64,000 nt of DNA from an uncultured Alphaproteobacteria bacterium (GTDB taxonomy: Bacteria; Pseudomonadota; Alphaproteobacteria; HIMB59; GCA-002718135): the NCBI GenBank assembly GCA_902593125.1, contig CACJGU010000006.1:3662-67661 (forward strand), read 5' to 3'. The notes beneath the pieces were generated by a model, which was given only the letters and a program-made list of their open reading frames with translations, did no database searches and had not been told where the DNA came from. Both the position numbers and the translations under genes were made by a program. Below, piece by piece: positions 27,308-41,438 of this stretch (position 1 is the stretch's first letter; every line of letters starts with the position of its first letter).

Positions 27308-27317
27308 TAGTTAAAGA

Positions 27318-28085
27318 TTATTTTGCTGTCCATCCACCATCTATCACAACAGAAGATCCTGTCATCATTGAAGAAGCATCTGATGCTAAATATACAACTG
27401 CAGTAGCAATGTCAGCTTCAGTTGCTACTTTTCCTAAAGGTATGTTTTCAATTACAGATTTTTTAAAATTTTTATCTTTAAAAAATTTTTTTACCATCGG
27501 TGTTTCAACAAAAGTTGGGCAAACAGAATTCACTCTAATGTTGTATTTAGCTAGATCAACAGCCATGCCTTTTGTCAATCCTTCCATTCCAAATTTTGTC
27601 ATATTGTAAACACTTCTTAGAGGTGCGCCTACTTTACCTAATTGTGATGATATATTAATTATCGATCCGCCAATTTTTTTTCGATTTTTTGATTTAAGCA
27701 TAACTTTTGTTGCCAATTGTGCAATATCAAATGATGCTTTAATATTAAGATCAACAACCTCACTCATATCTTTTCTTTTAATTTTGGTAAAATATTCAGG
27801 TCTATTTGTGCCAGCATTATTTACTAATATGTCTAATTTGTTGATTTCAGAAAATATTTTTTTAATTTCTTTTACATTTGTTACATCACACACATAATAA
27901 TTACATTTCTTTTTGAGTTTTTTAATTTTGTTTTGAACAATTAAGAGATCTTTCTCTGTTCGACTCAGAATAATTACATTTGCACCTGCTTCTGCTAATG
28001 CTATCGCACATGCTTTACCTATACCTTTTCCTGATCCTGTAACAAGAGCGGTTTTGTTATTTATATTAAAATTTTTAAGAAACAT
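27318..28085 (-). CDS. Short-chain dehydrogenase/reductase
   Basis: TGSGKGIG, NNAG, ISSQ, YNMTK, CPTFVETP, DGGW. Confidence 0.9.
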   Translation of the reverse strand: MFLKNFNINNKTALVTGSGKGIGKACAIALAEAGANVIILSRTEKDLLIVQNKIKKLKKKCNYYVCDVTNVKEIKKIFSEINKLDILVNNAGTNRPEYFTKIKRKDMSEVVDLNIKASFDIAQLATKVMLKSKNRKKIGGSIINISSQLGKVGAPLRSVYNMTKFGMEGLTKGMAVDLAKYNIRVNSVCPTFVETPMVKKFFKDKNFKKSVIENIPLGKVATEADIATAVVYLASDASSMMTGSSVVIDGGWTAK

Positions 28086-28098
28086 TTATTCTGATTAT

Positions 28099-28758
28099 TT
28101 ACAATGAAAAGATAGATTGATCTAATAAATTCATTTTTTTGATGCACATTTGAAAATTATCTTCTTGGTGGTAGTCACCCGGAAATCCGATGCACTTAAT
28201 TCCTGCACTCACAGCAGAATTACTACTTTCTTCAGTATCCTCTATTGCAAGACAATCTTCTGCTTGTAAATTAAGTTTATCTAAAGTGACTTTGTAAATT
28301 TCTGGATGTGGTTTTTCCTTTTTAACAAACGATTTATTGCCAATAAAGTCAAAATCTTCTTTAGAAATTTGACCAGAAAGACTTTCGAATACTGCATCGA
28401 CATTATTTAAAGTTGTAGAAGTTGAGAAAGCAAGTTTAAAATTATTATCTTTTGAATACTTAATTATTTCATCAACACTTTTTCTTAATTTTTGTTTGTT
28501 TTTAATAATGAATGAACTGAAGATTTCTGTTTTTCTATTTCTAATTTGTGATGCATTTACATTAGTATTATTTTTCTCAGCAAAATCTTCTACTCTTTTT
28601 GTCCCACCAGATTTTTTTAACAAAATTTTATAATCTTGCTCATCCCAATACCAATCTAGACCAGCTTCTTTGAAAGCTGTATTAAATGAATTACGTTGAA
28701 TATTAGAAGATTCGATAAGGGTTCCAATCGATCCGAACAGCAGAGCTTTGTATTTCAT
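28099..28758 (-). CDS. HAD-fold CbbY-like protein (motif I Asp residues absent)
   Basis: LLFGSIGTL, QRNSFN.AF...GLDWYW, KPHPEIY, AIEDT. Confidence 0.8.
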   Translation of the reverse strand: MKYKALLFGSIGTLIESSNIQRNSFNTAFKEAGLDWYWDEQDYKILLKKSGGTKRVEDFAEKNNTNVNASQIRNRKTEIFSSFIIKNKQKLRKSVDEIIKYSKDNNFKLAFSTSTTLNNVDAVFESLSGQISKEDFDFIGNKSFVKKEKPHPEIYKVTLDKLNLQAEDCLAIEDTEESSNSAVSAGIKCIGFPGDYHQEDNFQMCIKKMNLLDQSIFSL

Positions 28759-28788
28759 AATAAAACCTATATTTAACTAATATGTTTT

Positions 28789-29670
28789 TTAACCCTTTAC
28801 TGCACCTGCAGTTAAACCACTAATTAATTGTCGCTGAAAAAACATTACGATCATAAATAATGGTGCTGTTGCAGAAACAACACTAGCTACCGCCCACATG
28901 TAATTACCTCCGTACTCTACTGTTCCAAGATATGCATTGATTTTTGGAACCATAGTGTAGTTTTCTTGATTAAGTAACAAAGCAGTTACTGTAAAATCAT
29001 TATATGCTAACATTAAACTAAATAAGCCAGCTGTTATAACTCCTGGCCACATAACAGGCATAATTATAAAACGAAATGCTTGAAAATATGAACAGCCGTC
29101 AATTAAAGCACTTTCATCCAATTCTTTAGGCACTGTTTTAAAAAATGAATATAATAACCACAAAGTAAATGGTTGGTTAATTGCTACCAACACAATTATC
29201 GTAGTTGGTAAAATACCCCAAACTCCAAATTGAAAAAAAGGAAATAAATAACCTGACACCAAAGTGATGTGCGGCATTGCTCTAAAAATTAATGCTGCAA
29301 TTAAAATCCAAAAGGTATACTTATAGGTTGATCTTGATAGAGCATAAGCACCAAGTGTTCCTAAAAATAAAGAAATAGATACGACAGATATTGTGACTAT
29401 AATTGTATTTAAAGCAGCTCTTCCAAATTCACCTTCAGTCCAAGATTCTATATAACCATTTAATGTAAAATTTCTTCCAGTTTCAATTAGGGTATTAAAG
29501 CCAGAAATAGCATAATACCAGTCAGCTCTTGAAAAAAAGTCTGCTTTGACCTTTAATGATCCCCACAGTGTCCAGAGAAAAGGAAAAACGGAGATGGTCA
29601 ACCAAAAAATAATAAAAATTGAATTTATAATTATTAATTGTTTAGAATATTTATTAACTTTTGATTCCAT
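28789..29670 (-). CDS. Carbohydrate (CUT1) ABC permease, MalG-like
   Basis: EAA loop VPKELDESALIDGCS; six TM helices. Confidence 0.9.
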   Translation of the reverse strand: MESKVNKYSKQLIIINSIFIIFWLTISVFPFLWTLWGSLKVKADFFSRADWYYAISGFNTLIETGRNFTLNGYIESWTEGEFGRAALNTIIVTISVVSISLFLGTLGAYALSRSTYKYTFWILIAALIFRAMPHITLVSGYLFPFFQFGVWGILPTTIIVLVAINQPFTLWLLYSFFKTVPKELDESALIDGCSYFQAFRFIIMPVMWPGVITAGLFSLMLAYNDFTVTALLLNQENYTMVPKINAYLGTVEYGGNYMWAVASVVSATAPLFMIVMFFQRQLISGLTAGAVKG

Positions 29671-30699
29671 TTATCTCTCAGTTTTAAATTCTTTCCATGT
29701 TCTAATAAGAACTGGAGTTAGAAGGATTCCTACTCCCAAAATTGTTAGCATTGACGTTGCTCCTGCCGATCCAAATAACATTAATGTTTCATTTCTAAGA
29801 TCTTTGTAAATCATCCATGATAAAGATTGCGCTACTCCTTCAGCACTAAAACCTATAATCGGTTCAAAAACTCTAAAGTTATCCATTAAACATATTAAAG
29901 CAATAAAGGTTGCGACTGGATATAAATGAGGAAGAACAATATGCCTTACTCTTTGAGATCGTGAAGCTCCATCGATTACAGCTGCCTCCATTGGATCTTG
30001 AGGTACTGTTTGAAGTCCAGCGTAAAAAACAACAAAAGCAAAAGGTGTATTGTGCCAAATTCCATATATTATTAATGTAATCCAAGTTAATTTTTTTGAT
30101 GATTTTAAAGATAAATTTGGATCATCAAAAATAATTTGAATAGTTGCGCCTAATATACCTTGAGAGTCTATCATCCAAAATAATACTAAAGAGCCTATTA
30201 AAGGAGTCACAATCATTGGGAGTATAGTTCCAAAAATTACCATTCCTTTTATACTTTTAGCTAAAACATTTACAGAAAGAGCAACGATAAATCCTAAAAC
30301 AATTACACACGGGGTAACACTAAAACAAAAAGTGAGAGTGAAAAGTAAACTCTTATAAAAAGGAAGATTTAAAACTTTTTTCATAAAATCTGAGAAATTA
30401 TTTGTACTGACCCATGCCTCTTTAACTTCTCCAAAAGCTAAATGATTTCTATCTTTGTATGTTTCTAATCCATTAAATCTACCTAGAGGATTTTCCGCCC
30501 TTGCTAGAGCTGTAGCTTCCTGATCAACTTGTACTTCTGTTTCACAGCCGAAAGGATCACATGTTTCCACCTCTATTAGTATTTGTTCAGGCTCAATATG
30601 AAGTGATTGAAAAAAACTTGAAAATATAGGAAGCCCTATAAATAGAACCATTGCCAATCCACTTGGAAAAAAGAACCAGAAAAAAGTTTTATGAGGCAT
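29671..30699 (-). CDS. Carbohydrate (CUT1) ABC permease, MalF-like
   Basis: WHNTPF..YAGLQTVP...EAAVIDGAS, DNFRVFE. Confidence 0.9.
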   Translation of the reverse strand: MPHKTFFWFFFPSGLAMVLFIGLPIFSSFFQSLHIEPEQILIEVETCDPFGCETEVQVDQEATALARAENPLGRFNGLETYKDRNHLAFGEVKEAWVSTNNFSDFMKKVLNLPFYKSLLFTLTFCFSVTPCVIVLGFIVALSVNVLAKSIKGMVIFGTILPMIVTPLIGSLVLFWMIDSQGILGATIQIIFDDPNLSLKSSKKLTWITLIIYGIWHNTPFAFVVFYAGLQTVPQDPMEAAVIDGASRSQRVRHIVLPHLYPVATFIALICLMDNFRVFEPIIGFSAEGVAQSLSWMIYKDLRNETLMLFGSAGATSMLTILGVGILLTPVLIRTWKEFKTER

Positions 30700-30741
30700 T
30701 ACTCATACTTTTATATTTTTATTGTTAAGATGTAACAAAAA

Positions 30742-30770
30742 TGAGAGTGGAACATATTGTTCCACTCTCA
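30742..30770 (-). terminator. Intrinsic terminator / hairpin between SBP and permease genes
   Basis: TGAGAGTGGAACA-tat-TGTTCCACTCTCA perfect 13-bp stem followed by U-run on minus strand. Confidence 0.8.
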
Positions 30771-30783
30771 ATATTTATTTAGT

Positions 30784-32019
30784 TTACAGGAAACCCTGTT
30801 CTTTGGCTTTAGCTATGTAAGCAGCTTCAATGTCTTCAAGTGCTTTTTCAGCTGATTCATTACCTTGTAAGAATTCAACCATTTCATCACTCATTGCTCC
30901 ATGGAGTAAACCCATTTGAGGAATACTTGGATATGGAGTTGCTCCCATTTTAGCAGCAGCTAAAACACCGACTGCAGCATCACCAGGAGTATATCCGTTG
31001 ATTAACCATACAGCAGCGTTTGGATTGTTATTAGCCATTTCTGTTGAAGATGCAGCACCAACTAAAGCTCTAAAAGAAGCTTCGGCGTTTTCATCAGATG
31101 TATTTTTTGCAATTGCTAAACCATCCCACCAAAGAGTTGTAGCAGCAGCACTTCCTCCGCCAACTGTAGGCGGTGCAGCTAATCTTGTATCTGCTTTGAT
31201 AGCTTGATCACCTTCATCATCTAAAAGTGACGCAGCACCTGATCCCCAGATATGCATGATTGCAACATTACCAGACTCCCACTCCTCTTTAACTGCATTT
31301 GTATCTTGCGTTAAGAAGTCAGGGTTACTTAGTTCAGTTAATTTTTTTATTACATTAAGTGCAGCTACACCTTTAGCATTGTTAATGCTTGGTTCTGCAG
31401 TCCCTGGTTTAAAAAATTCACCACCATGACCTAAGTACATGTTTACAAATTCTTGAGAAAGATTCCATCCTGCTTTAAATGCACCAGCATATGGATTATC
31501 CATTTTTCCCGAAGCTTTAATTTTTTCAGCGGCGGCAATTACTTCTTCATAAGTTGTTGGTACAGCTATTCCTAGTTCATTAAAGATGCTTTCTCTATAC
31601 CAAAGATGTTGAGCGTTAGCCATGAAAGCAACAGCATAAACTTTACCATCAAAAGTTATTAATTGACTTTTATTTAAGTTAGCACCGTATTTTTCAACTA
31701 AATCATCCAATGGACGAAGAAGGCCTTTGCTCATCAAAGGTGTGATTGAACCGTTAGTTACAATCTTAGCTGTAAATTCAGCTGGATTTGCTTCTAAAGC
31801 AGGTCCTTGTAATTTTTGGTGATCAACTGAATGAGTAACACTAAAATCAGCATCAGATCCAGCACATTTTTCTGCTTCTTCCATTACGATTCTGAGAGTT
31901 GTAAACTCGTTAGCTAATACATTAATTGTCCCATTTGTTACTCCACAAGGTGAGTGCCCGCCAGCATATGCACCTGTACTAACAAATGTAAACAACAGAG
32001 CTATTAATAGTTTTTTCAT
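30784..32019 (-). CDS. Carbohydrate-type ABC substrate-binding protein (family 1)
   Basis: Signal peptide; LRPLDDLV, LWYRESIF..LGIAVPTTYEEVI. Confidence 0.88.
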   Translation of the reverse strand: MKKLLIALLFTFVSTGAYAGGHSPCGVTNGTINVLANEFTTLRIVMEEAEKCAGSDADFSVTHSVDHQKLQGPALEANPAEFTAKIVTNGSITPLMSKGLLRPLDDLVEKYGANLNKSQLITFDGKVYAVAFMANAQHLWYRESIFNELGIAVPTTYEEVIAAAEKIKASGKMDNPYAGAFKAGWNLSQEFVNMYLGHGGEFFKPGTAEPSINNAKGVAALNVIKKLTELSNPDFLTQDTNAVKEEWESGNVAIMHIWGSGAASLLDDEGDQAIKADTRLAAPPTVGGGSAAATTLWWDGLAIAKNTSDENAEASFRALVGAASSTEMANNNPNAAVWLINGYTPGDAAVGVLAAAKMGATPYPSIPQMGLLHGAMSDEMVEFLQGNESAEKALEDIEAAYIAKAKEQGFL

Positions 32020-32110
32020 ATATTTCCCCTTATTAATAAAGTGTGAAATTCACATTTAAGTATAATTCCTTTATATTAGTATTAGAAAATAATGCAATAA
32101 TATGAATTGA

Positions 32111-32128
32111 TATTCAATGTTTTGAATA
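32111..32128. promoter_or_regulatory. Operator-like palindrome TATTCA-N6-TGAATA (copy 1)
   Basis: TATTCA ATGTTT TGAATA between divergent SBP and LacI genes. Confidence 0.7.
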
Positions 32129-32149
32129 TTGAAATTGAGGGGATAATTC

Positions 32150-33148
32150 ATGAGTTTTAAAAAGACTGCGACATCACAGGACGTAGCAAAACTGGCAGGC
32201 GTATCCCAATCCGCAGTTTCAAGATGCTTTACTAAAGGCGCCAGCATTTCTAGTAGAACAAAGTTAAGAGTTTTAGAAGCTGCCAAGAAATTAAAATATA
32301 AAGCGCCTAATATATCTTCTAATTCTACACCTAATGATGATAGCGGATTAGTAGCTATCATTTTACCTTATGTTACTAGCAGATATTATCCTGAAGTTTT
32401 AATAGAGTTACATGAAGCACTTAGAAATGGAGGTTTTAGGATTTTATTAATTACGACTGATGACGGGGAAGAATTAGATGAAAAATTAATACAGCCATAC
32501 TTAAAAGAAAAACTCATTGCAATAATATCAGCAACAAAACCTACTGATAAATTTGTTGAAGATTGCAATCAAAAAAGAATTCAATTTATTGCTTATAATA
32601 GGAGTTGGAATATACCAACGATAAGTTCTGTTGCATGTGATCATCGTAATGGAGGAGAATTAGTTGCAGAATATTTTACCAAAAAAAATCATAAAAATAT
32701 TGGACTAATTGAAGGACCAAAAGGATCTTATGTTAGTGATGAACGATGCAAAGGTTTTAAAAATTATCTTAAAAATAATAAAAAAATTAAATTAAAGATT
32801 GAAAAAGGTTTTTTTACTTATGAAGGTGGATATCAAGCAACTGAAAAAATTTTTAATAAAAACATAAGTGCAATATTTTGCGCTGATGACACAATGGCAT
32901 TTGGATGTTTAGATTATATTAAAAAAAATACTTCATTAAAAACACCTTTTCACTTAGAAATTATTGGTTATGACGATATATCTATGTCAGCTTGGGAATC
33001 ATATAACCTGACAACTGTTAGACAGCCTATTAGACAAATGTCAAAACTAGCAACTCAATTAATAAATGAATTTATTAAGGATCCAGATTTTGAACCTATA
33101 AATCATATTGTACAGGGAAGACTTATAAAAAGAAAAACTACAAAATAA
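32150..33148 (+). CDS. LacI family transcriptional regulator
   Basis: TSQDVAKLAGVSQSAVSR HTH; YKAPN hinge; IIGYDDI, LTTVRQP. Confidence 0.93.
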   Translation: MSFKKTATSQDVAKLAGVSQSAVSRCFTKGASISSRTKLRVLEAAKKLKYKAPNISSNSTPNDDSGLVAIILPYVTSRYYPEVLIELHEALRNGGFRILLITTDDGEELDEKLIQPYLKEKLIAIISATKPTDKFVEDCNQKRIQFIAYNRSWNIPTISSVACDHRNGGELVAEYFTKKNHKNIGLIEGPKGSYVSDERCKGFKNYLKNNKKIKLKIEKGFFTYEGGYQATEKIFNKNISAIFCADDTMAFGCLDYIKKNTSLKTPFHLEIIGYDDISMSAWESYNLTTVRQPIRQMSKLATQLINEFIKDPDFEPINHIVQGRLIKRKTTK

Positions 33149-33149
33149 T

Positions 33150-34705: not shown

Positions 34706-34758
34706 AATTTGTATTTGTAATGAGATACATTTAAAAATATTTCAAAGCAATAAAATTT

Positions 34759-34776
34759 TATTCAAAAAAATGAATA
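34759..34776. promoter_or_regulatory. Operator-like palindrome TATTCA-N6-TGAATA (copy 2)
   Basis: TATTCA AAAAAA TGAATA between divergent ester cyclase genes. Confidence 0.7.
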
Positions 34777-34812
34777 TTGTCTTTTTTAGTTTATTAATAT
34801 AATCAAAATGAA

Positions 34813-35817: not shown

Positions 35818-36945
35818 TTAGATTACTTTCGAGGCAAGTTTAGTACCTTCAACTAATGCATGAAGCTTTTCATAACAAATTTTTTCATCAATTTTTCCAA
35901 AGCCAGCAAATGTACTAAAACCACAATCTGTCCCTGCCATTAATTGATCTTTCGGAATTACTGTAGAAAACTGAATTAATCTATCTGCAACAACTTCTGG
36001 ATGTTCAACAAAATTAGAGGTTGAGTCGATTACGCCAGGTACTAGGACTTTATCTTTTGGTAACTTTATATCTTGAAAAACTTTCCATTCATGAGCGTGT
36101 CTAGGATTAGAAGATTCAATTAGAAAGTATTTTATCTTTGATTTCAAAATTATAGGTAATATTTTCTCTAAAGCAATATCGTGTGTATGTGGCCCTTCAT
36201 AATTTCCCCAACATATATGCATTCTAGTTTGTTCAATATTAACATTGGATAATGCTGAGTTGAGGCATTCAATTTGTAGTTCTGCACGTTTAATAAATTC
36301 ATCCTCAGATAAATTTTTAAAATTCATGTGTCTTGCTAAAGCAAGGTCGGGGCAATCTAGCTGAACTTGGATATCTGATTTTGTTATAACTTCATATTCT
36401 TTAGCCATAATATTAGATAATTTATCCAAATATTCATCTTCACTACTATAAAACTTATTTGGCATAAAAACATTTATGACTCCAGGTGAAGCTGAATTCA
36501 TAAATGCATGTCGATGATTTAGTTTATCAAGTGAATTTTTAAAATTATTAATATCTTTTATAAGAGACGTTTCATCTTTTACTTTTAATTCGTTTGTACA
36601 ACATGGTCTGGTATAAGTTGGTGTGCCACCACTTTTAGCAATCTTTTCTTTATATTCAGGAAAATCATCAAGGTCAGCGGGTGCTCTTCTTTCACTTTCA
36701 CCTGAGAACCCCTCTATTCTGTCTTTAATATAAGTAGCATAACTAATTTTACTCATCTCCCCATCACTGACAAAGTCAATTCCAACATTAAGTTGTTTCT
36801 TCACAACACTTTCGACATTATTTTTTAACACTTCATCAAAACTACTTTTACTGAATTTTTCACCTTTATCTTTAGCAAATAAAAATTCTGAAAGTTCTTT
36901 TGACCTCGGAAGACTTCCAACATGTGTTGTCAAAATATTAGACAT
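35818..36945 (-). CDS. Cobalamin-independent methionine synthase II family protein (epoxyalkane:CoM transferase-like)
   Basis: TTHVGSLPR, SDGEMSK, QLDCPDL, HICWGNYEGPH, GTDCGF. Confidence 0.85.
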   Translation of the reverse strand: MSNILTTHVGSLPRSKELSEFLFAKDKGEKFSKSSFDEVLKNNVESVVKKQLNVGIDFVSDGEMSKISYATYIKDRIEGFSGESERRAPADLDDFPEYKEKIAKSGGTPTYTRPCCTNELKVKDETSLIKDINNFKNSLDKLNHRHAFMNSASPGVINVFMPNKFYSSEDEYLDKLSNIMAKEYEVITKSDIQVQLDCPDLALARHMNFKNLSEDEFIKRAELQIECLNSALSNVNIEQTRMHICWGNYEGPHTHDIALEKILPIILKSKIKYFLIESSNPRHAHEWKVFQDIKLPKDKVLVPGVIDSTSNFVEHPEVVADRLIQFSTVIPKDQLMAGTDCGFSTFAGFGKIDEKICYEKLHALVEGTKLASKVI

Positions 36946-36949
36946 TAAA

Positions 36950-37942
36950 TTAACCCGTTTTTAATAATATCTGTTTCCAGATCATAGTTTCATCATAGAG
37001 AACCCATTCATTTTTGATACCTCTTTCTCCATATTCAACATGATTGATACCCATTATATAAATTTTTGCATTAGTAGCTCTTCCAAATAAACCATCTCCT
37101 TCATGTTTTCCTACTATAGACCATCGTACTGAAGCTTTTTTAGGTTCATGTTTTTCTTCAGTAAAAGCAATGTGCTCTACTGAAAATAATCCATTGGGGA
37201 AAGCATCTCTTAATTCTTTCCAAAATTTTATTGCCTCATCTCTTCCATGGCTAGTTTTCCCTCCTGGTTGAAATTGTTGTATAGCTCTATCATAACTATC
37301 ATTTATTGTTTTCTCTAAGTTAATGTTCATGATGGAGGTTAATATATTTGCATATAGCTCTCCAATATTACCAGAAGCTAATATCGGAGATTTATAAATC
37401 GATTCTACAGGTGTATTTTCATCAAAAGGTTTGCTAGTTTTTTCAGGACCACCTTCATCTTTAATGAGATTGCTAGCAAATTTTTTCGGATCTATTCCAA
37501 TTTGTCTCACGATTGCTCCTTGATCTCTTACAAGCCACTCATCATAAACCTGATTATTCATACATGCACAGTCAGCAATGGTTCGGTAATAAAGTTTTTT
37601 TCCTGTCGCTTTCCCGTACATACCATCAACAGAATGAGTTGAAGTTGATAAAATACGGTGTGATGAAAAATATCCCTCATCATCATTGCCTGTCCAAATT
37701 ATATCTTCACCTAAAAGTGTTCTATCGGGGAATAGTTTTTTACTAGCATATGTACTTTGTATTACTGGATCTGCACCATAAATTACTCCAGATGGAGATC
37801 TTGTAGGTGTTGGAAGACTTACATTTGGGGTATCAGCATAATACTGTCTTATTGCTTCAACATCATTGTTTTCCCAAATCTGATATGTAATTTTTAAAAT
37901 ATAGTCAGGTAAGTCTTTAAACTGTTTATCAAAACCTTTCAT
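36950..37942 (-). CDS. SnoaL-like ester cyclase (two NTF2 domains), type A
   Basis: DYILKITYQIWE, FPDR...IIW.G....SSHR, DEWLVRD, AFPN, NEWVLYD. Confidence 0.8.
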   Translation of the reverse strand: MKGFDKQFKDLPDYILKITYQIWENNDVEAIRQYYADTPNVSLPTPTRSPSGVIYGADPVIQSTYASKKLFPDRTLLGEDIIWTGNDDEGYFSSHRILSTSTHSVDGMYGKATGKKLYYRTIADCACMNNQVYDEWLVRDQGAIVRQIGIDPKKFASNLIKDEGGPEKTSKPFDENTPVESIYKSPILASGNIGELYANILTSIMNINLEKTINDSYDRAIQQFQPGGKTSHGRDEAIKFWKELRDAFPNGLFSVEHIAFTEEKHEPKKASVRWSIVGKHEGDGLFGRATNAKIYIMGINHVEYGERGIKNEWVLYDETMIWKQILLKTG

Positions 37943-37955
37943 AGTAAAATAATAT

Positions 37956-38927
37956 TTAATTAGTTTGACGTATTATAAATAAATTCCCCTCATCATTACT
38001 TATCTGTCTAACGGAGCGTAATGAGTTTTTTGGAACAGAAAATGTATCTTTCTCGTTGATTACAAGTGTGTTTCCATCACACTCAATTTCCCATTTACCA
38101 GATAAGCAATGATAAACTTCTGATTTCTCTAGTGCATATTCATGTATATGTGCATTTTTTCCATTGAGTAGTGAAAGGCTAAAACCTGTTGTATGAGGTA
38201 TCTTCGGTTCAAATGATTTGTTGTGAATATTAAAATGATCAAGATAGTTGATAATTTTATTTGATTTGTAGTGTTCATCATCAACAAAATATTTATCTTT
38301 TTTATCAAATCGAATAACAAACTTTTCAATATCTTCTGAAGAATAATGGTCGAAACTTTCTAATTCATGATCTTTTAATGGTTGAATAACTTTAGTTTCA
38401 TCTGTTATTTTTTGTTTCTCTGTATCAATTAAAGAATTATCATCCATTAAAACCATACCAGATTCTTTTGCATCTTTTAAAAGTTTTGGTGTCCAAGTGA
38501 TTACACCAGGATCATTTTCACCTAATACTACAAACATTAAAGCTTCTTCATCACTTACATTTTGAAAACCTCTGAACATATTTGTAGGAAAAGAAGCTAT
38601 ATCACCTTTCTTTAAAATCACTTCACCTTCATTACCGTCAACCCCCCAATAGAAACGCCATGCACCAGAATGAATAATAAAAACTTCAGCTGTTGTATGA
38701 CTATGTAATCCAGATCCATTCATAGGTGCGGCACTTACAGCACCGATATTAAAACCATGTTCTTCAGCTATTTTGACATTTTGTTTTGCATCTTCACTTA
38801 CTCCAGGCCCTATAACTGAATAATTTTTTCTGTCTTGATGGCCTTTTAATTTACCCTCAACAAAAGGTATGTTACTTGGTATAAGTTCATCAAATTTTGC
38901 TAATCTTGATGTAATATTCATTGACAT
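37956..38927 (-). CDS. Bicupin protein
   Basis: GSGLHSHTTAEVFIIHSG.W, GDIASFP..MFRGF; second cupin SEVY..LSG.W...DTFSVP. Confidence 0.8.
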   Translation of the reverse strand: MSMNITSRLAKFDELIPSNIPFVEGKLKGHQDRKNYSVIGPGVSEDAKQNVKIAEEHGFNIGAVSAAPMNGSGLHSHTTAEVFIIHSGAWRFYWGVDGNEGEVILKKGDIASFPTNMFRGFQNVSDEEALMFVVLGENDPGVITWTPKLLKDAKESGMVLMDDNSLIDTEKQKITDETKVIQPLKDHELESFDHYSSEDIEKFVIRFDKKDKYFVDDEHYKSNKIINYLDHFNIHNKSFEPKIPHTTGFSLSLLNGKNAHIHEYALEKSEVYHCLSGKWEIECDGNTLVINEKDTFSVPKNSLRSVRQISNDEGNLFIIRQTN

Positions 38928-38962
38928 ATTATTGTGATATTTTATTCATTTTTTTTGAATAT

Positions 38963-38980
38963 TATTCAAATTAATGAATA
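38963..38980. promoter_or_regulatory. Operator-like palindrome TATTCA-N6-TGAATA (copy 3), with an adjacent N7 variant at 38943-38961
   Basis: TATTCA AATTAA TGAATA between divergent cupin and ester cyclase/dehydrogenase operons. Confidence 0.7.
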
Positions 38981-39018
38981 AATCAATTATTATTTATTTT
39001 TACTGTTAATAAATCGAT

Positions 39019-40116
39019 ATGACAAATGAAATTAAAACTTTTGATACTGGTGAAAAAGATAGGTCAAATTTTATACACGTAGATTTAAATCCAAAAAAAA
39101 ATATTGAGAATAAAAAAAATTTTAAAAATTTATTTAATAAAATTGCTGAGTGTCCAATAGATGATTTAGATGAATATTTAAAATTAACTTATCATGAAGA
39201 AGTAGAATTAAATGCCTTTCATCCAATAAATGAAATTAAGGGAATTGATGATGTAAAAAATAAATTATGGAGACCAATTAAAAATGCATTGCCTGACTTA
39301 GAAAGAAGAAACAATCTTGTTATAGGTGGAGCATTTAGAGACAAGGTTTTTGTTTCATTTATTAGCCATCTTACTGGTACATTTGTAAATGAGTGGCTAG
39401 GCATTCCACCAACAAACAAAACGATATTTTTGAGAACATGTGAAGCTCATCAAATAACAAATAATAAAATAATTAAATCTTATACACTAATTGATACTGT
39501 TGATTTTATTCGCCAAGCTGGACACTGGCCAATAAATAAATCACTTGGTTCAGAGGGTATGTGGCCAAGTCCCATAACTGGAGATGGTGAAAATAATGAG
39601 AATTTGGATAATGATTTATCGTTAAGATCCCTCAACCAAGATTTGACTATGCAACGAAGCCTCAATATCAAACCCGAAACAGAGCCTGAACTAAATATAA
39701 ATGAAATCAGAGAAAAATTAATCAATCATCCTCAAAAAAATTACTGGCATCCCAAAATGATGTGGTACGGACCATCAGGCATAGGAACAGCAAGAGGGCT
39801 AAAAGGGTTTGTTGATCATCATCAACTTCCTTTTCGATTAACATTTAAAGAGAGAGATTATTGGAAAATTGGACACTATATTGAAATTGGTGATGGAAAT
39901 TATTCTATGACAGGTGGTTGGCACAGTATTGAATGTGTACATGGATCAAATGAATGGCTTGGGTATAAAGCAACAAATAAAAAAGTAACAATGAGAGTTA
40001 TGGACTTTTATTTACATCATGAAGGTTTGATTAGGGAAAATTGGGTACCAATTGATATTGCTCACATTTTAAATCAAATAGGGATTGATATATTCAAATT
40101 AATTCATAAAAAATAG
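39019..40116 (+). CDS. SnoaL-like ester cyclase (two NTF2 domains), type B
   Basis: HPINEI, ALPDLERR, WLGIPPTNK, MMWYGPSGIG, RVMDFY...IRENWVPID. Confidence 0.8.
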   Translation: MTNEIKTFDTGEKDRSNFIHVDLNPKKNIENKKNFKNLFNKIAECPIDDLDEYLKLTYHEEVELNAFHPINEIKGIDDVKNKLWRPIKNALPDLERRNNLVIGGAFRDKVFVSFISHLTGTFVNEWLGIPPTNKTIFLRTCEAHQITNNKIIKSYTLIDTVDFIRQAGHWPINKSLGSEGMWPSPITGDGENNENLDNDLSLRSLNQDLTMQRSLNIKPETEPELNINEIREKLINHPQKNYWHPKMMWYGPSGIGTARGLKGFVDHHQLPFRLTFKERDYWKIGHYIEIGDGNYSMTGGWHSIECVHGSNEWLGYKATNKKVTMRVMDFYLHHEGLIRENWVPIDIAHILNQIGIDIFKLIHKK

Positions 40117-40118
40117 TT

Positions 40119-41438
40119 ATGGCTATAGAATATATCAAAAAGGGAATAGATGAGAAACAACGAATAGAAGATAATGAAAAAGTAAAAAAAATTGTTGAAG
40201 AGACACTTAGTAAAATTGAAGATGAAGGTGATAAATATATTAGAGAATTGTCTAAAAAATTTGATAATTATTCTCCCCCAAGCTTTAAATTAAGTGAAAA
40301 TCAAATTACTGACTTAATGGATGAAGTATCTAATGAGGACAAAGAAGATATAAAATTTGCTCAAAAACAAGTTAGATCTTTTGCTGAAGCTCAGCTTAAA
40401 ACTTTAAATGAACTGGAGGTTGAAACACATCCAGGAGTAATTCTTGGACATAAAAATATCCCTGTGCAAGCTGTGGGCTGTTATGTACCTGCTGGAAAAT
40501 TTCCCATGGTAGCTTCAGCACATATGTCAGTTGTTACTGCATCAGTTGCTGGAGTGCCAAGAATAGTAGCAACTACACCACCTTTTCAGGGTAAACCAAA
40601 TCCAGCTGTTATTACAGCAATGAAAATGGGTGGTGCACATGAAATTTTTGTTTTAGGAGGTATGCAAGGAGTTGGGGCAATGGCAATAGGAACAGAAACA
40701 ATTAAGCCAGTTGATATGCTCGTTGGTCCTGGAAATGCCTTTGTTGCTGAAGCAAAACGACAGCTGTATGGAAAGGTAGGTATAGATTTATTTGCAGGCC
40801 CTACTGAAACAATGGTGATTGCAGACGATACTGTTGACGGAGAAATTTGTGCAACTGATTTATTAGGACAAGCAGAACATGGTTATAATTCACCAGCAGT
40901 AATGATAACTAATTCAAAAAAACTCGCTGAAGATACATTAATTGAAATTGATAGATTATTAAAAATACTTCCTACAAAAGATACCGCAAGTGCAAGTTGG
41001 CGAGACTATGGAGAAATAATTCTATGCGAAAATTATGATGAAATGCTCATAAAAGCAAATGAGATCGCTTCAGAGCATGTTCAAGTAATGACAGATCGAG
41101 ATGATTGGTTTTTAGAAAAAATGACTTCTTATGGTGCGTTGTTTTTAGGACCTAGGACTAACGTTGCAAATGGTGATAAAGTTATTGGGACTAATCATAC
41201 TCTTCCTACAAAAAAAGCAGGTCGATATACTGGAGGATTATGGGTAGGTAAGTTTATTAAAACTCATACCTATCAAAAGATTGTAACTGATGAAGCAGCA
41301 ACACTAATTGGAGAATATGGTTCAAGACTCTCTCACCTAGAGGGTTTTATTGGTCATGCAGAACAATGCAATGTCAGGGTTAGACGTTATGGAAAAAAAA
41401 ATGTGGCCTACGGTAAACCAGCTGGAGAAAAAATTTAA
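40119..41438 (+). CDS. Histidinol-dehydrogenase-family protein (HpsN-like; probably not biosynthetic HisD)
   Basis: GCYVPAGK, VGPGNAFVAEAKR, IDLFAGPTE, QAEHG, SEH, GDKVIGTNHTLPT; catabolic context. Confidence 0.85.
   Translation: MAIEYIKKGIDEKQRIEDNEKVKKIVEETLSKIEDEGDKYIRELSKKFDNYSPPSFKLSENQITDLMDEVSNEDKEDIKFAQKQVRSFAEAQLKTLNELEVETHPGVILGHKNIPVQAVGCYVPAGKFPMVASAHMSVVTASVAGVPRIVATTPPFQGKPNPAVITAMKMGGAHEIFVLGGMQGVGAMAIGTETIKPVDMLVGPGNAFVAEAKRQLYGKVGIDLFAGPTETMVIADDTVDGEICATDLLGQAEHGYNSPAVMITNSKKLAEDTLIEIDRLLKILPTKDTASASWRDYGEIILCENYDEMLIKANEIASEHVQVMTDRDDWFLEKMTSYGALFLGPRTNVANGDKVIGTNHTLPTKKAGRYTGGLWVGKFIKTHTYQKIVTDEAATLIGEYGSRLSHLEGFIGHAEQCNVRVRRYGKKNVAYGKPAGEKI

What the first reader, a model, noticed from the sequence alone, without database searches (positions are those of the whole stretch)
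27318..41438. Candidate undescribed catabolic system: five SnoaL/NTF2 proteins with bicupin, MetE-like thiol transferase, HisD-family dehydrogenase, SDR, pseudo-HAD, ABC importer and LacI
Seen: 14 tightly packed genes in six alternating transcription units driven from three divergent promoter regions that share one palindrome. Five are SnoaL-like proteins (nine NTF2 domains), with no PKS, NRPS or ACP nearby, so polyketide cyclisation is implausible. Known: NTF2-fold enzymes do cofactor-free chemistry (epoxide hydrolysis, dehydration, isomerisation, aldol cyclisation); HisD/HpsN enzymes oxidise primary alcohols to acids; MetE-core enzymes alkylate thiols. Inference: an inducible import-and-degrade pathway for an unidentified, probably cyclic or polyol-like marine metabolite. 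Its position among pta, xsc and comDE suggests an organosulfur compound. I know no characterised pathway with this gene set, and 14 kb is a large investment for a streamlined genome.
Basis: partly seen in the sequence, partly recalled or inferred. Interest (0 to 1): 0.9.

Follow-up and report, generated by a model that had tools for sequence, protein, structure and literature searches.

The report
Conserved unknown marine nutrient-breakdown gene cluster
A tightly packed set of 14 genes in an abundant ocean bacterium looks like an uptake-and-breakdown pathway for a still unidentified small molecule, and the same gene set recurs in many other bacteria without appearing in any paper I could find.

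Summary
Window 27318-41438 carries 14 close-packed genes in six alternating transcription units. They encode a sugar-type ABC importer (no ATPase), a LacI repressor, five SnoaL/NTF2 proteins (four tandem and one single, so nine domains), a bicupin, a 375-aa MetE-like zinc enzyme, a HisD-family dehydrogenase, an SDR and a HAD protein lacking both catalytic Asp.

The set is conserved as a unit. A core (importer, two tandem NTF2 proteins, bicupin, MetE-like) is syntenic in HIMB59-like single-cell genomes and in Pelagibacter isolates. Fuller versions occur in Ruegeria, Marinovum, Ensifer, Martelella, Deinococcus and Priestia and in 18 sampled alphaproteobacterial genomes of 31-65% GC.

The dehydrogenase is not HpsN. 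It belongs to a sister group that is 71-77% identical across orders and travels with this cluster.

Seven full-text searches found no description.

The function is inferred: an inducible import and oxidative ring-cleavage pathway. My best, untested candidate substrate is the mycosporine-like amino acid / 4-deoxygadusol family. The organosulfur idea rests only on neighbours in streamlined genomes.

The parts
27318..28085 (-). SDR oxidoreductase (255 aa), last gene of the importer unit
   Evidence: PF13561 1.6e-59. It reaches no NCBIfam equivalog cut-off. Best solved relative is a FabG at 2e-41, with no HpsO hit. An SDR sits in the cluster in 14 of 18 other alphaproteobacterial loci.
28099..28758 (-). 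HAD-fold protein of the beta-phosphoglucomutase family without the catalytic Asp pair (pseudo-HAD)
   Evidence: PF13419 3e-18. Motif I is FGSIGT in 5 of 5 orthologues, while motifs II-IV are kept. Present in 32 of 46 HIMB59-like and 27 of 34 Pelagibacter-labelled loci, but in only 1 of 18 other loci.
28789..30699 (-). Two ABC permeases (293 and 342 aa), CUT1 type
   Evidence: PF00528 in both. 76-89% (perm2) and 66-82% (perm1) identical in most HIMB59-like and Pelagibacter-labelled relatives; 28-70% in divergent HIMB59-like variants.
30742..30770 (-). 13-bp G+C-rich hairpin followed by a T-run, between the binding-protein and permease genes
   Evidence: Terminator-like site. RNA-library contig depth is far higher over the SBP gene than over the permease genes, but contig depth cannot rank genes.
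30784..32019 (-). Periplasmic solute-binding protein (411 aa) with a signal peptide
   Evidence: PF01547 1.9e-22. Best solved relative is the trehalose/maltose-binding protein 1eu8 at only 8.7e-13. The SAR11 glucose binder 8HQQ is not among the hits, and the SQGro binder SmoF scores 6e-6.
32020..32149 (.). Divergent control region SBP/LacI with palindrome TGAATTGATATTCA at 32103
32150..33148 (+). LacI-family repressor (332 aa)
   Evidence: PF00356 plus periplasmic-binding-protein domains. Present in 34 of 46 HIMB59-like, 0 of 34 Pelagibacter-labelled and 11 of 18 other loci.
33150..33569 (-). Single-domain SnoaL/NTF2 protein (139 aa)
   Evidence: PF07366 3.8e-25. A counterpart is present in 10 of 18 other loci.
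33566..34705 (-). Tandem NTF2 protein, family A paralogue (379 aa), accessory
   Evidence: PF07366, 2 stretches. 30-32% identical to SnoaL330 over its full length.
34706..34812 (.). Divergent control region with half-sites ATATTCA-N7-TGAATAA
34813..35817 (+). Tandem NTF2 protein, family B paralogue (334 aa), accessory
   Evidence: PF07366. Aligns end to end with SnoaL365 at 27% identity.
35818..36945 (-). MetE-like zinc (beta/alpha)8 enzyme (375 aa), catalytic barrel only
   Evidence: PF01717 at 50 bits. NCBIfam methionine-synthase models are far below cut-off, 106.6 vs 406. H243, C245, E277, C341, D61-G62-E63 and D197 are invariant in 14 orthologues. More than 8000 metagenomic relatives.
36950..37942 (-). 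Tandem NTF2 protein, family A (330 aa), core
   Evidence: AF2 pLDDT 95.8, two NTF2 domains. Foldseek gives Lsd19/MonB tandem NTF2 at only TM 0.34-0.41 and single-domain cyclases at 0.7-0.8 per domain. 942 representative clusters in 1.84 billion proteins.
37956..38927 (-). Bicupin (323 aa); N-terminal barrel carries the conserved metal motif
   Evidence: PF07883. H75, H77, E81, R119, W90 and W94 are invariant and the motif-2 His is absent. AF2 pLDDT 75.7. Foldseek gives only generic bicupins at TM 0.46-0.58.
38928..39018 (.). Divergent control region with perfect palindrome TTGAATATTATTCAA at 38956
   Evidence: Conserved in diverged relatives L035, L036, L038 and L044.
39019..40116 (+). Tandem NTF2 protein, family B (365 aa), core
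   Evidence: PF07366, 2 stretches. 53-82% identical in 76 of 80 loci.
40119..41438 (+). HisD-family NAD-dependent alcohol-to-acid dehydrogenase (439 aa), cluster-specific sister group of HpsN
   Evidence: PF00815 at 437.8 bits. 390 bits to HpsN 8v35 vs 258 to HisD. 72-74% identical to the cluster-linked copies of Ruegeria, Marinovum and Martelella; 46-47% to true HpsN; 33% to the genome's own HisD. 61-77% in the other alphaproteobacterial loci. The pocket loop reads GKFP vs GRY(A/N) in HpsN.

Best explanation
What it is. One LacI-controlled catabolic locus that imports a polar, uncharged or zwitterionic small metabolite through a CUT1-type ABC system. It then degrades the compound by cofactor-light chemistry followed by oxidative ring cleavage.

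Shown: the parts, their conservation as a unit, the intact zinc site of the MetE-like enzyme, the intact metal motif of the bicupin, the distinct dehydrogenase subfamily, and the palindromes.

Inferred mechanism.
(1) Without inducer, LacI sits on the TGAAT-N3/4-ATTCA palindromes in the divergent regions.
(2) The binding protein captures the substrate. It is made in excess because of the hairpin behind its gene.
(3) The tandem NTF2 proteins (an A and a B type, duplicated in this genome, plus a single-domain one) do hydrolytic, dehydrating or isomerising steps directly on the imported molecule.
(4) The HpsN-sister dehydrogenase oxidises a -CH2OH next to a carbinol carbon to -COOH.
(5) The MetE-like enzyme uses its zinc-activated thiolate, most likely homocysteine, to remove a methyl group from the substrate. 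This would yield methionine.
(6) The bicupin cleaves the resulting enediol, aci-reductone or catechol-type ring with O2.
(7) In larger-genome relatives a PcaD-like lactonase and an RraA- or HpcH-type aldolase finish the job, giving pyruvate plus a C4 acid.

Best single candidate substrate: mycosporine-like amino acids and their core, 4-deoxygadusol or gadusol. NTF2 enzymes would hydrolyse the imine and enaminone C-N bonds and release Gly, Ser or Thr. For the core, oxidising CH2OH to COOH takes 4-deoxygadusol (C8H12O5) to C8H10O6, and loss of water then gives C8H8O5, which is 4-O-methylgallate. Demethylation at the enol-ether or aryl-ether stage gives a gallate or aci-reductone that suits a cupin dioxygenase.

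My odds: about 0.8 that this is a single catabolic system of this general shape, and about 0.25 that the substrate is of the MAA/gadusol family.
For: Unit and conservation. The core is syntenic in 80 loci (Sno330 78, bicupin 78, Sno365 76 of 80). Full sets occur in Ruegeria conchae and Marinovum algicola plasmids. In 18 alphaproteobacterial genomes of 31-65% GC the counts are Sno330 16, bicupin 16, type-1 HisD 13, SDR 14, SBP 14, MetE-like 10, alpha/beta hydrolase 11 and RraA-like 6. The flanks of 17 of these clusters show no further recurrent family, at most 3 of 51 ORFs.

Abundance. 83 of 116 family genomes and 24 of 401 sampled class genomes carry a homologue. The MetE-like protein has more than 8000 metagenomic relatives.

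Catabolic direction. A binding-protein importer plus LacI. Accessory genes nearest to 3-oxoadipate enol-lactonase, lactonases and HpaI/LigK-type aldolases, all below curated cut-offs.

Minimal form. Vibrio pelagius keeps only the importer plus four tandem NTF2 genes, which argues that the NTF2 proteins act first.

Enzyme states. The Zn ligands and the DGE and D..P motifs are invariant in 14 MetE-like orthologues. The bicupin HxH...E motif is invariant. The dehydrogenase is a conserved sister of an enzyme that oxidises a vicinal-diol primary alcohol.

Regulation. Palindromes.

RNA libraries. 4 of 4 laid marine runs hold contigs at 92% identity or more over the SBP, NTF2, MetE-like, bicupin and HisD-like genes.

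Candidate substrate. A review (PMC3083659, passages read) reports bacterial (Vibrio harveyi) hydrolysis of shinorine and porphyra-334 to mycosporine-glycine and 4-deoxygadusol, names no genes for it, and reports MAAs in the dissolved pool of seawater. The mass balance is my own arithmetic. Second hisD copies and amidases in Martelella, Deinococcus and Priestia clusters would fit amino-alcohol or amide side chains such as glutaminol. That these occur in fungal mycosporines is recalled, not from a call.
Against: No tool result touches the substrate, so the chemistry is inference from families.

The MetE-like gene was not found in 8 of 18 other loci, nor in the Ensifer, Martelella, Deinococcus, Priestia and Vibrio clusters. 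Yet all mycosporines carry the methoxy group (recalled).

The window's own cluster lacks the lactonase and aldolase. The only RraA-like and Amidohydro_2 genes of the assembly lie on another contig, in what looks like an unrelated sugar-acid cluster.

The RraA-like protein scores only 28.5 bits against the LigK model, whose cut-off is 304.5.

Known gallate dioxygenases are not cupins (recalled).

The SDR and the pseudo-HAD have no assigned step.

CUT1 binding proteins usually take sugars or polyols. The nearest solved relatives are sugar binders, though only at E 1e-12.

In the two streamlined lineages the cluster sits beside sulfonate genes (pta, hpsN, xsc), which the MAA reading does not explain.

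RNA-library contigs may include DNA carry-over and cannot show induction.
Confidence: 0.45

Rival explanations
1. An organosulfonate pathway. The importer takes a sulfonated sugar or polyol, such as sulfoquinovose, sulfoquinovosyl-glycerol or a DHPS-related compound. The cluster converts it to sulfolactaldehyde or sulfolactate, with the HpsN-like enzyme making the acid. That product then flows through ComDE, Xsc and Pta, which are encoded nearby.
For: The window holds comDE (12500-13557), a tpa-like aminotransferase, ald, pta and xsc, and the cluster lies between pta and xsc. pta is within 10 kb in 20 of 46 HIMB59-like and 30 of 34 Pelagibacter-labelled loci, and a true hpsN (527 bits to 8v35) adjoins the Pelagibacter cluster. 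The dehydrogenase's closest characterised relatives are HpsN enzymes. In 4 HIMB59-like loci an HpsN-like copy (46-47% identical to the window's enzyme, the same range as the Pelagibacter hpsN) occupies the same slot; only L038 was compared directly with that hpsN (70% identical). The SBP has a weak hit to the SQGro binder SmoF (6e-6).
Against: Outside the two streamlined lineages the link disappears: pta 0 of 18, true hpsN 0 of 18, and xsc only one 25% TPP-enzyme hit. The cluster's own dehydrogenase differs from HpsN in the pocket loop, GKFP vs GRY(A/N); Liu et al. name R124-Y125-S126. No sulfoquinovosidase, SQ isomerase, kinase, aldolase or TauD-type enzyme is present. A 2026 review of aquatic SQ cycling has no occurrence of 'cupin' or 'SAR11' (passages). 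Second hisD copies and amidases in other clusters point to nitrogen, not sulfur.
Confidence: 0.15
2. Non-phosphorylative oxidative catabolism of an unusual sugar or polyol, for instance an O-methylated or deoxy sugar. The route would be SDR, then lactone, then lactonase, then sugar acid, then dehydration, then aldolase. The NTF2 proteins would serve as mutarotases or dehydratases, the MetE-like enzyme as demethylase and the cupin as isomerase.
For: CUT1 importer, LacI regulator and an SDR nearest to glucose 1-dehydrogenase and KduD models. Lactonase-like and HpaI- or RraA-type aldolase genes occur in relatives. Cupin sugar isomerases exist (recalled). Pangenome work on AEGEAN-169 reads that group's ABC systems as sugar transporters (PMC10308909, passages).
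Against: The cluster holds no kinase, glycoside hydrolase, enolase- or IlvD-type dehydratase. Three to five NTF2 proteins have no precedent in sugar-acid routes (my knowledge). HisD-family enzymes are not known from sugar pathways. The SBP is far from any characterised sugar binder.
Confidence: 0.18
3. Catabolism of a hydroxymethyl-bearing N-heterocycle or aromatic compound, of the vitamin-B6 or hydroxymethyl-pyridine, -pyrimidine or -pyranone type. Steps would be hydroxymethyl to carboxyl, ring cleavage by the cupin, hydrolase, and amidase.
For: Two hisD copies, amidase or C-N hydrolase, alpha/beta hydrolase and cupin occur together in the Martelella, Deinococcus and Priestia clusters.
Against: The marine core has no amidase or deaminase. 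A sugar-type importer would be unusual. Nothing points to a specific compound.
Confidence: 0.07
4. A biosynthetic cluster in which SnoaL-type cyclases build a polyketide-like product.
For: Pfam names the domains 'polyketide cyclase'. The nearest single-domain folds are IdmH, AclR, SnoaL2 and AknH.
Against: No PKS, NRPS, ACP or tailoring set appeared in any scanned gene. An importer with a periplasmic binding protein and a LacI repressor is present. NCBIfam's SnoaL methyl-ester cyclase model scores 32 vs a cut-off of 200. The cluster occurs in 1.3-1.6-Mb streamlined genomes.
Confidence: 0.02

Closest known systems
HpsN, (R)-2,3-dihydroxypropanesulfonate 3-dehydrogenase (PDB 8v35, 8wwe)
   Same: HisD fold, with the catalytic and Zn-binding residues of the family. 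It is the closest characterised relative of the cluster's dehydrogenase (390 and 352 bits). The probable chemistry is the same: a primary alcohol beside a carbinol carbon oxidised to the acid.
   Different: Only 46-47% identical to HpsN-type proteins, against 71-77% to cluster-linked copies in other orders. The pocket loop is GKFP instead of GRY(A/N). It is genomically tied to NTF2, cupin and MetE-like genes, not to hpsOP or hpsKLM.
Core-type (single-barrel) cobalamin-independent methionine synthases and zinc thiol alkyltransferases of the MetE / URO-D clan
   Same: PF01717 barrel, His-x-Cys...Glu...Cys zinc site, and the DGE and D..P motifs that in MetE contact homocysteine (that role is recalled)..
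   Different: 23% identical to the genome's own 349-aa core MetE. Far below every NCBIfam methionine-synthase cut-off. Always embedded in a catabolic cluster next to a bicupin, so the alkyl donor is probably the pathway substrate, not a folate or corrinoid.
Lsd19 / MonBI-MonBII tandem NTF2 epoxide-opening enzymes, and SnoaL, AknH, IdmH and limonene-epoxide-hydrolase single-domain enzymes
   Same: NTF2 cone fold, two domains in one chain or complex, cofactor-free catalysis.
   Different: Whole-chain TM is only 0.34-0.41 with rmsd 16-18 A, so the domain arrangement differs. Sequence identity is 8-20%. There is no polyether or polyketide context. The conserved residues (W23, S94-H95-R96, D124, E135-W136, D140, R273-W274, H280, D317) are not the published catalytic sets that I recall for these enzymes.
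Protocatechuate 4,5-cleavage, gallate and beta-ketoadipate lower pathways (ring-cleaving dioxygenase, lactone hydrolase, RraA-type CHA aldolase)
   Same: Relatives' clusters carry a cupin, a PcaD-like alpha/beta hydrolase, an Amidohydro_2 lactonase-like protein and an RraA- or HpcH-type aldolase in a row.
   Different: None reaches an equivalog cut-off (for example LigK 28.5 vs 304.5). The dioxygenase is a bicupin, not LigAB or GalA. The window's own cluster lacks the hydrolase and the aldolase.
Known sulfoquinovose and DHPS pathways (sulfo-EMP, -ED, -TAL, -TK, -SMO; HpsNOP)
   Same: Binding-protein ABC import (as in sulfo-SMO), an HpsN-like dehydrogenase, and neighbours xsc, pta and comDE in this genome.
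   Different: None of their signature enzymes is present. The association with sulfonate genes is confined to HIMB59-like and Pelagibacter genomes.

Membership tests
HpsN (sulfopropanediol 3-dehydrogenase) | HisD-family fold and closer to solved HpsN than to HisD | tested here: met
   PF00815 at 437.8 bits. 390.2 bits to 8v35 vs 257.7 to HisD 4g07.
HpsN (sulfopropanediol 3-dehydrogenase) | Orthology with characterised HpsN | tested here: not met
   46-47% identity to the Pelagibacter and L038 HpsN-type proteins, which themselves score 527 bits to 8v35. 72-74% identity to cluster-linked copies in Ruegeria, Marinovum and Martelella.
HpsN (sulfopropanediol 3-dehydrogenase) | Pocket triad Arg-Tyr-Ser named for RpHpsN (Liu et al. 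2024, passages) | tested here: not met
   The window has Lys-Phe-Pro at the aligned loop. HpsN-type sequences have Arg-Tyr-Ala/Asn. I placed the loop by alignment, not on a structure.
HpsN (sulfopropanediol 3-dehydrogenase) | Activity on (R)-DHPS | not testable with these tools
   Needs an enzyme assay.
Cobalamin-independent methionine synthase (MetE) | Catalytic barrel with His-x-Cys / Glu / Cys zinc site | tested here: met
   PF01717 at 50.2 bits, above the cut-off of 21. H243, C245, E277 and C341 are invariant in 14 orthologues.
Cobalamin-independent methionine synthase (MetE) | N-terminal folate-binding barrel (Meth_synt_1) and full-length equivalog score | tested here: not met
   375 aa with no PF08267 hit. 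Best NCBIfam methionine-synthase model scores 106.6 vs a cut-off of 406.
SnoaL-type polyketide cyclases | NTF2/SnoaL fold | tested here: met
   PF07366 in all five proteins. AF2 and Foldseek.
SnoaL-type polyketide cyclases | Curated family score and aromatic-polyketide gene context | tested here: not met
   NF033407 at 32.2 vs a cut-off of 200. No PKS or ACP in scanned genes.
Lsd19/MonB tandem NTF2 epoxide hydrolases | Superposable two-domain architecture | tested here: not met
   TM 0.34-0.41, rmsd 15.8-17.6 A.
LacI-family repressor | N-terminal LacI HTH plus periplasmic-binding-protein-like effector domain | tested here: met
   PF00356 at 6.6e-11 plus PF13407, PF00532 and PF13377. The operator assignment is inferred from the palindromes.
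CUT1 carbohydrate ABC importer | SBP_bac_1 binding protein plus two BPD_transp_1 permeases | tested here: met
CUT1 carbohydrate ABC importer | Dedicated ATPase in the locus | tested here: not met
   There is none between 26357 and 43958. One is present in the Pelagibacter locus (L067 5904-6959) and in 13 of 18 other loci. This assembly is 69% complete.
HAD phosphatase / beta-phosphoglucomutase | DxD nucleophile and general-acid motif I | tested here: not met
   FGSIGT in 5 of 5 orthologues. The fold and motifs II-IV are present.
Bicupin dioxygenases (quercetinase, gentisate/salicylate dioxygenase) | Two cupin barrels | tested here: met
   AF2 model and Foldseek at E 1e-14, TM 0.46-0.58.
Bicupin dioxygenases (quercetinase, gentisate/salicylate dioxygenase) | Full metal-ligand set (three His, or three His plus Glu) and specific sequence kinship | tested here: inconclusive
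   The N-terminal barrel keeps HxH...E but lacks the motif-2 His, and the C-terminal motif is not conserved. A profile search of PDB gives no hit better than 7e-5, and that hit is a kinetochore cupin.
Known sulfoquinovose catabolic pathways | Signature enzymes (sulfoquinovosidase; SQ isomerase, kinase and aldolase; SQ dehydrogenase and dehydratase; SQ mono- or dioxygenase) | tested here: not met
   No such domains in the 14 genes.

The most novel reading that the evidence does not exclude
The cluster is the missing bacterial pathway for mycosporine-like amino acids and gadusols, the main small-molecule sunscreens of phytoplankton, corals and fish eggs. Tandem NTF2 proteins would be a new class of cofactor-free C-N hydrolases and dehydratases that strip the amino acids and aromatise the ring. 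A sister of HpsN would make the ring carboxylate. The MetE-like enzyme would move the sunscreen's O-methyl group directly onto homocysteine, so that sulfur-limited SAR11 and HIMB59 cells gain methionine, amino acids and carbon from one molecule. A bicupin would open the ring.
Probability: 0.22. Interest if true: 0.9.

Novelty: new variant of a known kind. Interest (0 to 1): 0.78.

Why it matters
HIMB59/AEGEAN-169 and SAR11 are among the most numerous cells in the surface ocean, and what they eat sets the fate of labile dissolved organic carbon. This gene set is carried by about 7 in 10 species genomes of the window's family and by cultured Pelagibacter strains. Fuller versions occur on plasmids of Ruegeria conchae, Marinovum algicola and Ensifer adhaerens.

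It is built from enzyme families with no assigned role in catabolism: tandem NTF2 proteins, an HpsN sister group and a single-barrel MetE-like enzyme. I found it in no paper.

Identifying the substrate would add a new route to the marine carbon cycle, and possibly to the sulfur, methionine or nitrogen cycles. It would also give functions to several large 'ester cyclase' and 'methionine synthase II' annotation families.

In addition, it warns that the 'hpsN' and 'sugar ABC transporter' calls used in marine meta-omics can merge two different enzyme groups or mis-name this importer.

Tried and rejected

ESM Atlas returned only 'SnoaL-like' and 'methionine synthase II' clusters, with no functional lead.

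Sequence searches of solved structures were uninformative: SnoaL365 gave nothing, SnoaL330 only IdmH at 1.9e-4, and the bicupin only YxaG at 0.0075. A bicupin profile did no better.

Foldseek gave generic bicupin and NTF2 neighbours only.

Complex prediction for a family A (SnoaL330) and family B (SnoaL365) heteromer returned 'no answer', score 0.01. I draw nothing from it, and the idea of A/B heteromers stays an untested thought prompted by their co-occurrence.

Rfam found no riboswitch or other RNA family in the window. The sigma-70-like promoter scan gave fewer hits than shuffles (63 vs 78), so it is uninformative in this AT-rich DNA.

I looked for a gallate or protocatechuate-type lower pathway elsewhere in the genome. 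The only RraA-like and Amidohydro_2 genes lie on contig C9 among an IclR regulator, two SDRs, a mannonate-dehydratase-like gene and a Gfo/Idh/MocA gene. That looks like a separate sugar-acid cluster with no shown link.

I looked for further recurrent neighbours around 17 clusters and found none.

The glucose-transporter reading is rejected. The SAR11 glucose binder SAR11_0769 (PDB 8HQQ; Clifton et al. 2024, passages) is not among the SBP's PDB hits.

The trehalose/maltose reading is rejected as unsupported: no hydrolase or phosphorylase is present, and the beta-PGM-family protein lacks its nucleophile.

RNA runs: parts of the stretch without contig cover, and the relative depths of genes, are not interpreted.

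Literature. Searches returned nothing relevant (looked for an HpsN structure paper). One search found no MAA catabolic genes. Three sets of supplements could bear on whether this cluster was ever tabulated: Supplementary Data 2-4 of Liu et al. 2024 (which SAR11 genes were counted as hpsN), the supplementary tables of Clifton et al. 2024, and the AEGEAN-169 pangenome tables.

Full report
WHAT IS THERE

The window is about 30% G+C. It comes from a 1.26-Mb, 69%-complete assembly. Its nearest relatives are single-cell genomes labelled 'uncultured Alphaproteobacteria AG-…' and a 'MarineAlpha5' bin; Pelagibacter genomes are the next tier. I read this as the HIMB59/AEGEAN-169 lineage. That name is my inference from the record titles and base composition, not a tool result.

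Between 27318 and 41438 lie 14 ORFs with gaps from a 4-base overlap to 130 bases. Pfam and NCBIfam give the following:
- an SDR;
- a HAD-fold protein of the beta-phosphoglucomutase family;
- two CUT1-type permeases;
- an SBP_bac_1 binding protein with a signal peptide;
- a LacI repressor;
- five SnoaL/NTF2 proteins;
- a 375-aa protein with only the catalytic barrel of cobalamin-independent methionine synthase;
- a bicupin;
- a HisD-family dehydrogenase.

All eight SnoaL-domain matches in the whole assembly fall inside this cluster. The long NTF2 proteins are two paralogue pairs: family A (330 and 379 aa) and family B (365 and 334 aa). Each has two NTF2 domains. With the 139-aa protein this makes nine domains. 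The HAD protein has FGSIGT where DxDGT should be, and this holds in 5 of 5 orthologues. No ABC ATPase is encoded between 26357 and 43958.

CONTROL ELEMENTS

A perfect TGAAT-N3/4-ATTCA palindrome occurs three times in 64 kb. Two copies are in divergent regions of the cluster (32103 and 38956) and one is elsewhere (54994). The third divergent region has the half-sites in the opposite order.

The 38956 palindrome, TTGAATA(A/T)TATTCAA, survives in relatives whose surrounding intergenic sequence has diverged (L035, L036, L038, L044). This is what one expects of a LacI operator. Binding itself is inferred.

A 13-bp hairpin with a T-run lies between the binding-protein gene and the permease genes. 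No Rfam family matches anywhere in the window.

IS IT A UNIT?

Yes. A search with the MetE-like protein found more than 8000 metagenomic relatives and 526 genomic places, of which 80 were fetched with 10-kb flanks.

In those 80 loci (46 HIMB59-like, 34 Pelagibacter-labelled; many cut by contig ends, so these are lower bounds) the counts at 40% identity or more are:
- SnoaL330: 78
- bicupin: 78
- SnoaL365: 76
- perm1: 73
- SBP: 66

The order is fixed: SnoaL365 diverging from bicupin, SnoaL330, MetE-like, then SBP, permease, permease, HAD.

LacI, the SDR and the extra NTF2 trio (139, 379, 334) were found only in HIMB59-like loci: 34, 37 and 26-30 of 46, against 0 of 34. In Pelagibacter HTCC8051 the ATPase gene sits next to SnoaL365 and an alpha/beta hydrolase follows the HAD gene.

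A tblastn of plasmid records with SnoaL330 found 54 records. The Ruegeria conchae and Marinovum algicola plasmids carry the whole set, plus an ATPase, an alpha/beta hydrolase and an RraA-family gene, with an amidohydrolase at the edge of the R. conchae locus only. Ensifer, Martelella, Deinococcus and Priestia carry variants with a second hisD, an amidase or C-N hydrolase and an HpcH-type aldolase. Vibrio pelagius keeps only the importer and four tandem NTF2 genes, next to sarcosine oxidase.

I sampled the class evenly. 24 of 401 genomes have a SnoaL330 homologue at E 1e-30 or better, against 83 of 116 in the window's own family (79 of 104 in its genus; 6 of 11 among genomes at least 90% complete).

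I fetched 18 of those class-level places, with GC from 31 to 65%. The recurring order is ATPase, SBP, permease, permease, small NTF2, HisD-like, NTF2-B, SDR, LacI, NTF2-A, bicupin, (MetE-like), (alpha/beta hydrolase), (RraA-like). The counts of 18 are:
- SnoaL330: 16
- bicupin: 16
- NTF2-B: 16
- SDR: 14
- SBP: 14
- HisD-like: 13
- alpha/beta hydrolase: 11
- MetE-like: 10
- RraA-like: 6

The ORFs next to 17 of these clusters that my queries did not match share no recurrent Pfam family, at most 3 of 51.

THE DEHYDROGENASE

Its best solved relatives are HpsN enzymes: 390 bits to 8v35 and 352 to 8wwe, against 258 to a true HisD. The genome has a separate, better-scoring hisD on another contig.

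But the HisD-family gene next to the Pelagibacter cluster scores 527 bits to HpsN and is only 47% identical to the window's protein. The window's protein is 72-74% identical to the cluster-linked copies of Ruegeria, Marinovum and Martelella, 71% to Ensifer and 56% to Deinococcus. It is 61-77% identical in the 12 other-family genomes, of the 18 fetched places, that carry it.

At the loop where Liu et al. (PMC11131964, passages read) name Arg124-Tyr125-Ser126 as HpsN-specific, the cluster type has Lys-Phe-Pro. The HpsN type has Arg-Tyr-Ala/Asn.

So this is a separate, strongly conserved subfamily whose substrate is probably not DHPS. Four HIMB59-like loci have an HpsN-like copy (46-47% identical to the window's enzyme) in the same slot instead. 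The same paper reports a Km near 106 mM for DHPS for the SAR11 'HpsN' it tested. That is a reminder that calls in this family are uncertain.

THE OTHER ENZYMES

MetE-like protein. It keeps His243, Cys245, Glu277 and Cys341, as well as Asp61-Gly62-Glu63 and Asp197, in all 14 orthologues compared. It is only 23% identical to the genome's own 349-aa core MetE and is far below all curated methionine-synthase cut-offs. I infer a zinc-thiolate alkyl transfer. That the conserved acidic residues bind homocysteine's amino group is recalled from MetE structures, not tested here.

Bicupin. The N-terminal barrel has invariant His75, His77, Glu81 and Arg119 (Arg91 is kept in at least 90% of the wider set), with no motif-2 His. 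The C-terminal motif is not conserved. The model (pLDDT 75.7) matches only generic bicupins at TM 0.46-0.58: oxalate decarboxylase, quercetinase, salicylate/gentisate dioxygenase, AerE and BacB.

SnoaL330. The model is confident (pLDDT 95.8). The only two-domain NTF2 precedents, Lsd19 and MonBI/II, superpose poorly (TM 0.34-0.41). Single domains resemble IdmH, AclR, SnoaL2 and limonene epoxide hydrolase. The family has 942 representative clusters among 1.84 billion proteins.

Accessory enzymes of relatives. They are nearest to 3-oxoadipate enol-lactonase, L-fucono-lactonase-type amidohydrolases, HpaI aldolase, LigK-type RraA proteins and AtzE-type amidases. All are below the curated cut-offs.

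EXPRESSION

Contigs from 4 of 4 marine RNA libraries (four studies, coded X1, X2, X5, X6) lie on the cluster at 92% identity or more. They cover the SBP, LacI, NTF2, MetE-like, bicupin, SnoaL365 and HisD-like genes. One 601-base contig over the HisD-like gene has no differences. This shows presence in RNA libraries. It shows neither induction nor relative levels, and DNA carry-over cannot be excluded.

HOW IT MOST LIKELY WORKS

The importer, the repressor and the lactonase/aldolase tail in relatives point to catabolism. The Vibrio minimal form suggests that the NTF2 proteins act first on the imported molecule.

The remaining conserved chemistry has three parts: a primary alcohol oxidised to an acid, a zinc-thiolate dealkylation, and a metal-dependent cupin. 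In relatives these are followed by lactone hydrolysis and aldol cleavage. This fits a substituted six-membered ring that carries a hydroxymethyl and a methoxy group.

Mycosporine-like amino acids and their core, 4-deoxygadusol or gadusol, fit that description. They have two hydrolysable C-N bonds that would release Gly, Ser or Thr. They have a tertiary-carbinol CH2OH, analogous to the vicinal diol of DHPS. They have a vinylogous methyl ester, a chemically reasonable methyl donor.

Simple bookkeeping leads from 4-deoxygadusol (C8H12O5) through a C8H10O6 acid to 4-O-methylgallate (C8H8O5) by one four-electron oxidation and one dehydration. Demethylation then gives a gallate or aci-reductone ring of the kind that cupin dioxygenases cleave. 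I recall quercetinase and acireductone dioxygenase as precedents.

A review (PMC3083659, passages) reports that bacteria (Vibrio harveyi) hydrolyse shinorine and porphyra-334 to mycosporine-glycine and 4-deoxygadusol. It also reports that MAAs occur in the dissolved pool. My last search found no paper giving genes for this.

All of this is inference. Weak points are set out in the Against line:
- MetE-like is missing from many clusters.
- The window's cluster has no lactonase or aldolase.
- The SDR and pseudo-HAD are unexplained.
- The binding protein is of a sugar-type family.
- The sulfonate neighbours are not explained.

RIVALS

The organosulfur reading has real but local support. comDE, a tpa-like aminotransferase, ald, pta and xsc are all in the window. 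pta and a true hpsN adjoin the Pelagibacter cluster. But none of the 18 other alphaproteobacterial loci has pta or hpsN nearby. No signature enzyme of a known sulfoquinovose or DHPS route is present either.

A non-phosphorylative route for an odd sugar is the other serious rival. A heterocycle route and a biosynthetic reading are minor.

COMPARISON AND NOVELTY

Each part belongs to a known superfamily. None passes a membership test for a characterised enzyme (see Membership tests). The combination appears in none of the papers reachable here.

The AEGEAN-169 pangenome paper (passages) has no occurrence of 'cyclase', 'NTF2', 'cupin' or 'sulfo' and lists only sugar ABC transporters. The SAR11 'unknome' paper (passages) has none of my terms outside its reference list. 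Supplements were closed.

I therefore rate this as an undescribed pathway of a familiar kind (a repressor-controlled import-and-degrade locus) built from unusual enzyme families. It is widespread and abundant, and directly testable in cultured carriers.

VERDICT

- Observation: confirmed.
- Interpretation: partly supported. The undescribed catabolic system is supported; the sulfur link is not.
- Substrate: unknown, with MAAs/gadusol as my leading, unproven candidate.

Noticed in passing
window 41440-43041 (-): A 131-aa cytidylyltransferase-like protein with a WHDGH motif, a 137-aa P-loop kinase weakly like APS kinase, and CysQ (3'(2'),5'-bisphosphate nucleotidase, above cut-off) lie directly after the cluster. 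The first two overlap by 8 bases. They recur next to the HisD-like gene in 12 of 46 HIMB59-like loci and in the MarineAlpha5 locus L035. They could form a miniature nucleotide-activation or sulfation module. Its relation to the cluster is unknown.
   Followed up: partly
window 26357-27307 (-): A 316-aa ORF with no Pfam or NCBIfam match, an N-terminal hydrophobic segment and a HELLH zincin-like motif sits 10 bases from the SDR gene. A homologue was found in only 1 of 80 related loci.
   Followed up: partly
window 20876-22894: A 349-aa single-barrel ('core') MetE (PF01717 5e-42, below NCBIfam methionine-synthase cut-offs) is divergently placed next to a PHP/CehA-McbA-type metallohydrolase. It lies just upstream of ald and a tpa-like aminotransferase. 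So the genome carries two different short MetE-family proteins within 15 kb.
   Followed up: no
window 12500-20756: Sulfopyruvate decarboxylase comDE (alpha subunit above cut-off; beta at 217.8 vs 221.5), a DMT-family transporter, and an Opp/Dpp-type ABC system with an unusually long 682-aa binding protein.
   Followed up: no
G000 contig C9, locus L121 2501-11082: A separate cluster elsewhere in the same genome: RraA-like protein, IclR regulator, mannonate-dehydratase-like protein, two SDRs, an L-fucono-lactonase-like amidohydrolase and a Gfo/Idh/MocA oxidoreductase. It probably encodes a sugar-acid route.
   Followed up: partly
L094 (Vibrio pelagius plasmid pATCC25916) 4505-14143: A minimal form of the system: ABC importer plus four tandem NTF2 genes, without dehydrogenase, cupin or MetE-like gene. 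It is adjacent to a sarcosine oxidase operon.
   Followed up: partly
G039:C8:10374-11364: In one genome of the same genus the SnoaL330 orthologue is interrupted by two stop codons (1 TGA, 1 TAA), which suggests a pseudogene or an assembly error.
   Followed up: no
window 27165 / 41109: One low-depth RNA-library contig (run X5, depth 2.4, only 21 bases on the shorter side, 8 other letters between) joins 27165 to 41109 and so skips 13,943 bases, nearly the whole cluster. The tool warns that such short-sided joints often come from other organisms or repeats. It could also hint at strains without the cluster.
   Followed up: no
L038, L011, L041, L044 (HIMB59-like loci): In these four loci the slot after SnoaL365 is occupied by an HpsN-like dehydrogenase (46-47% identical to the window's enzyme). 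Only L038 was compared directly with the Pelagibacter hpsN (70% identical). This is a swap between two sister subfamilies at one position.
   Followed up: partly
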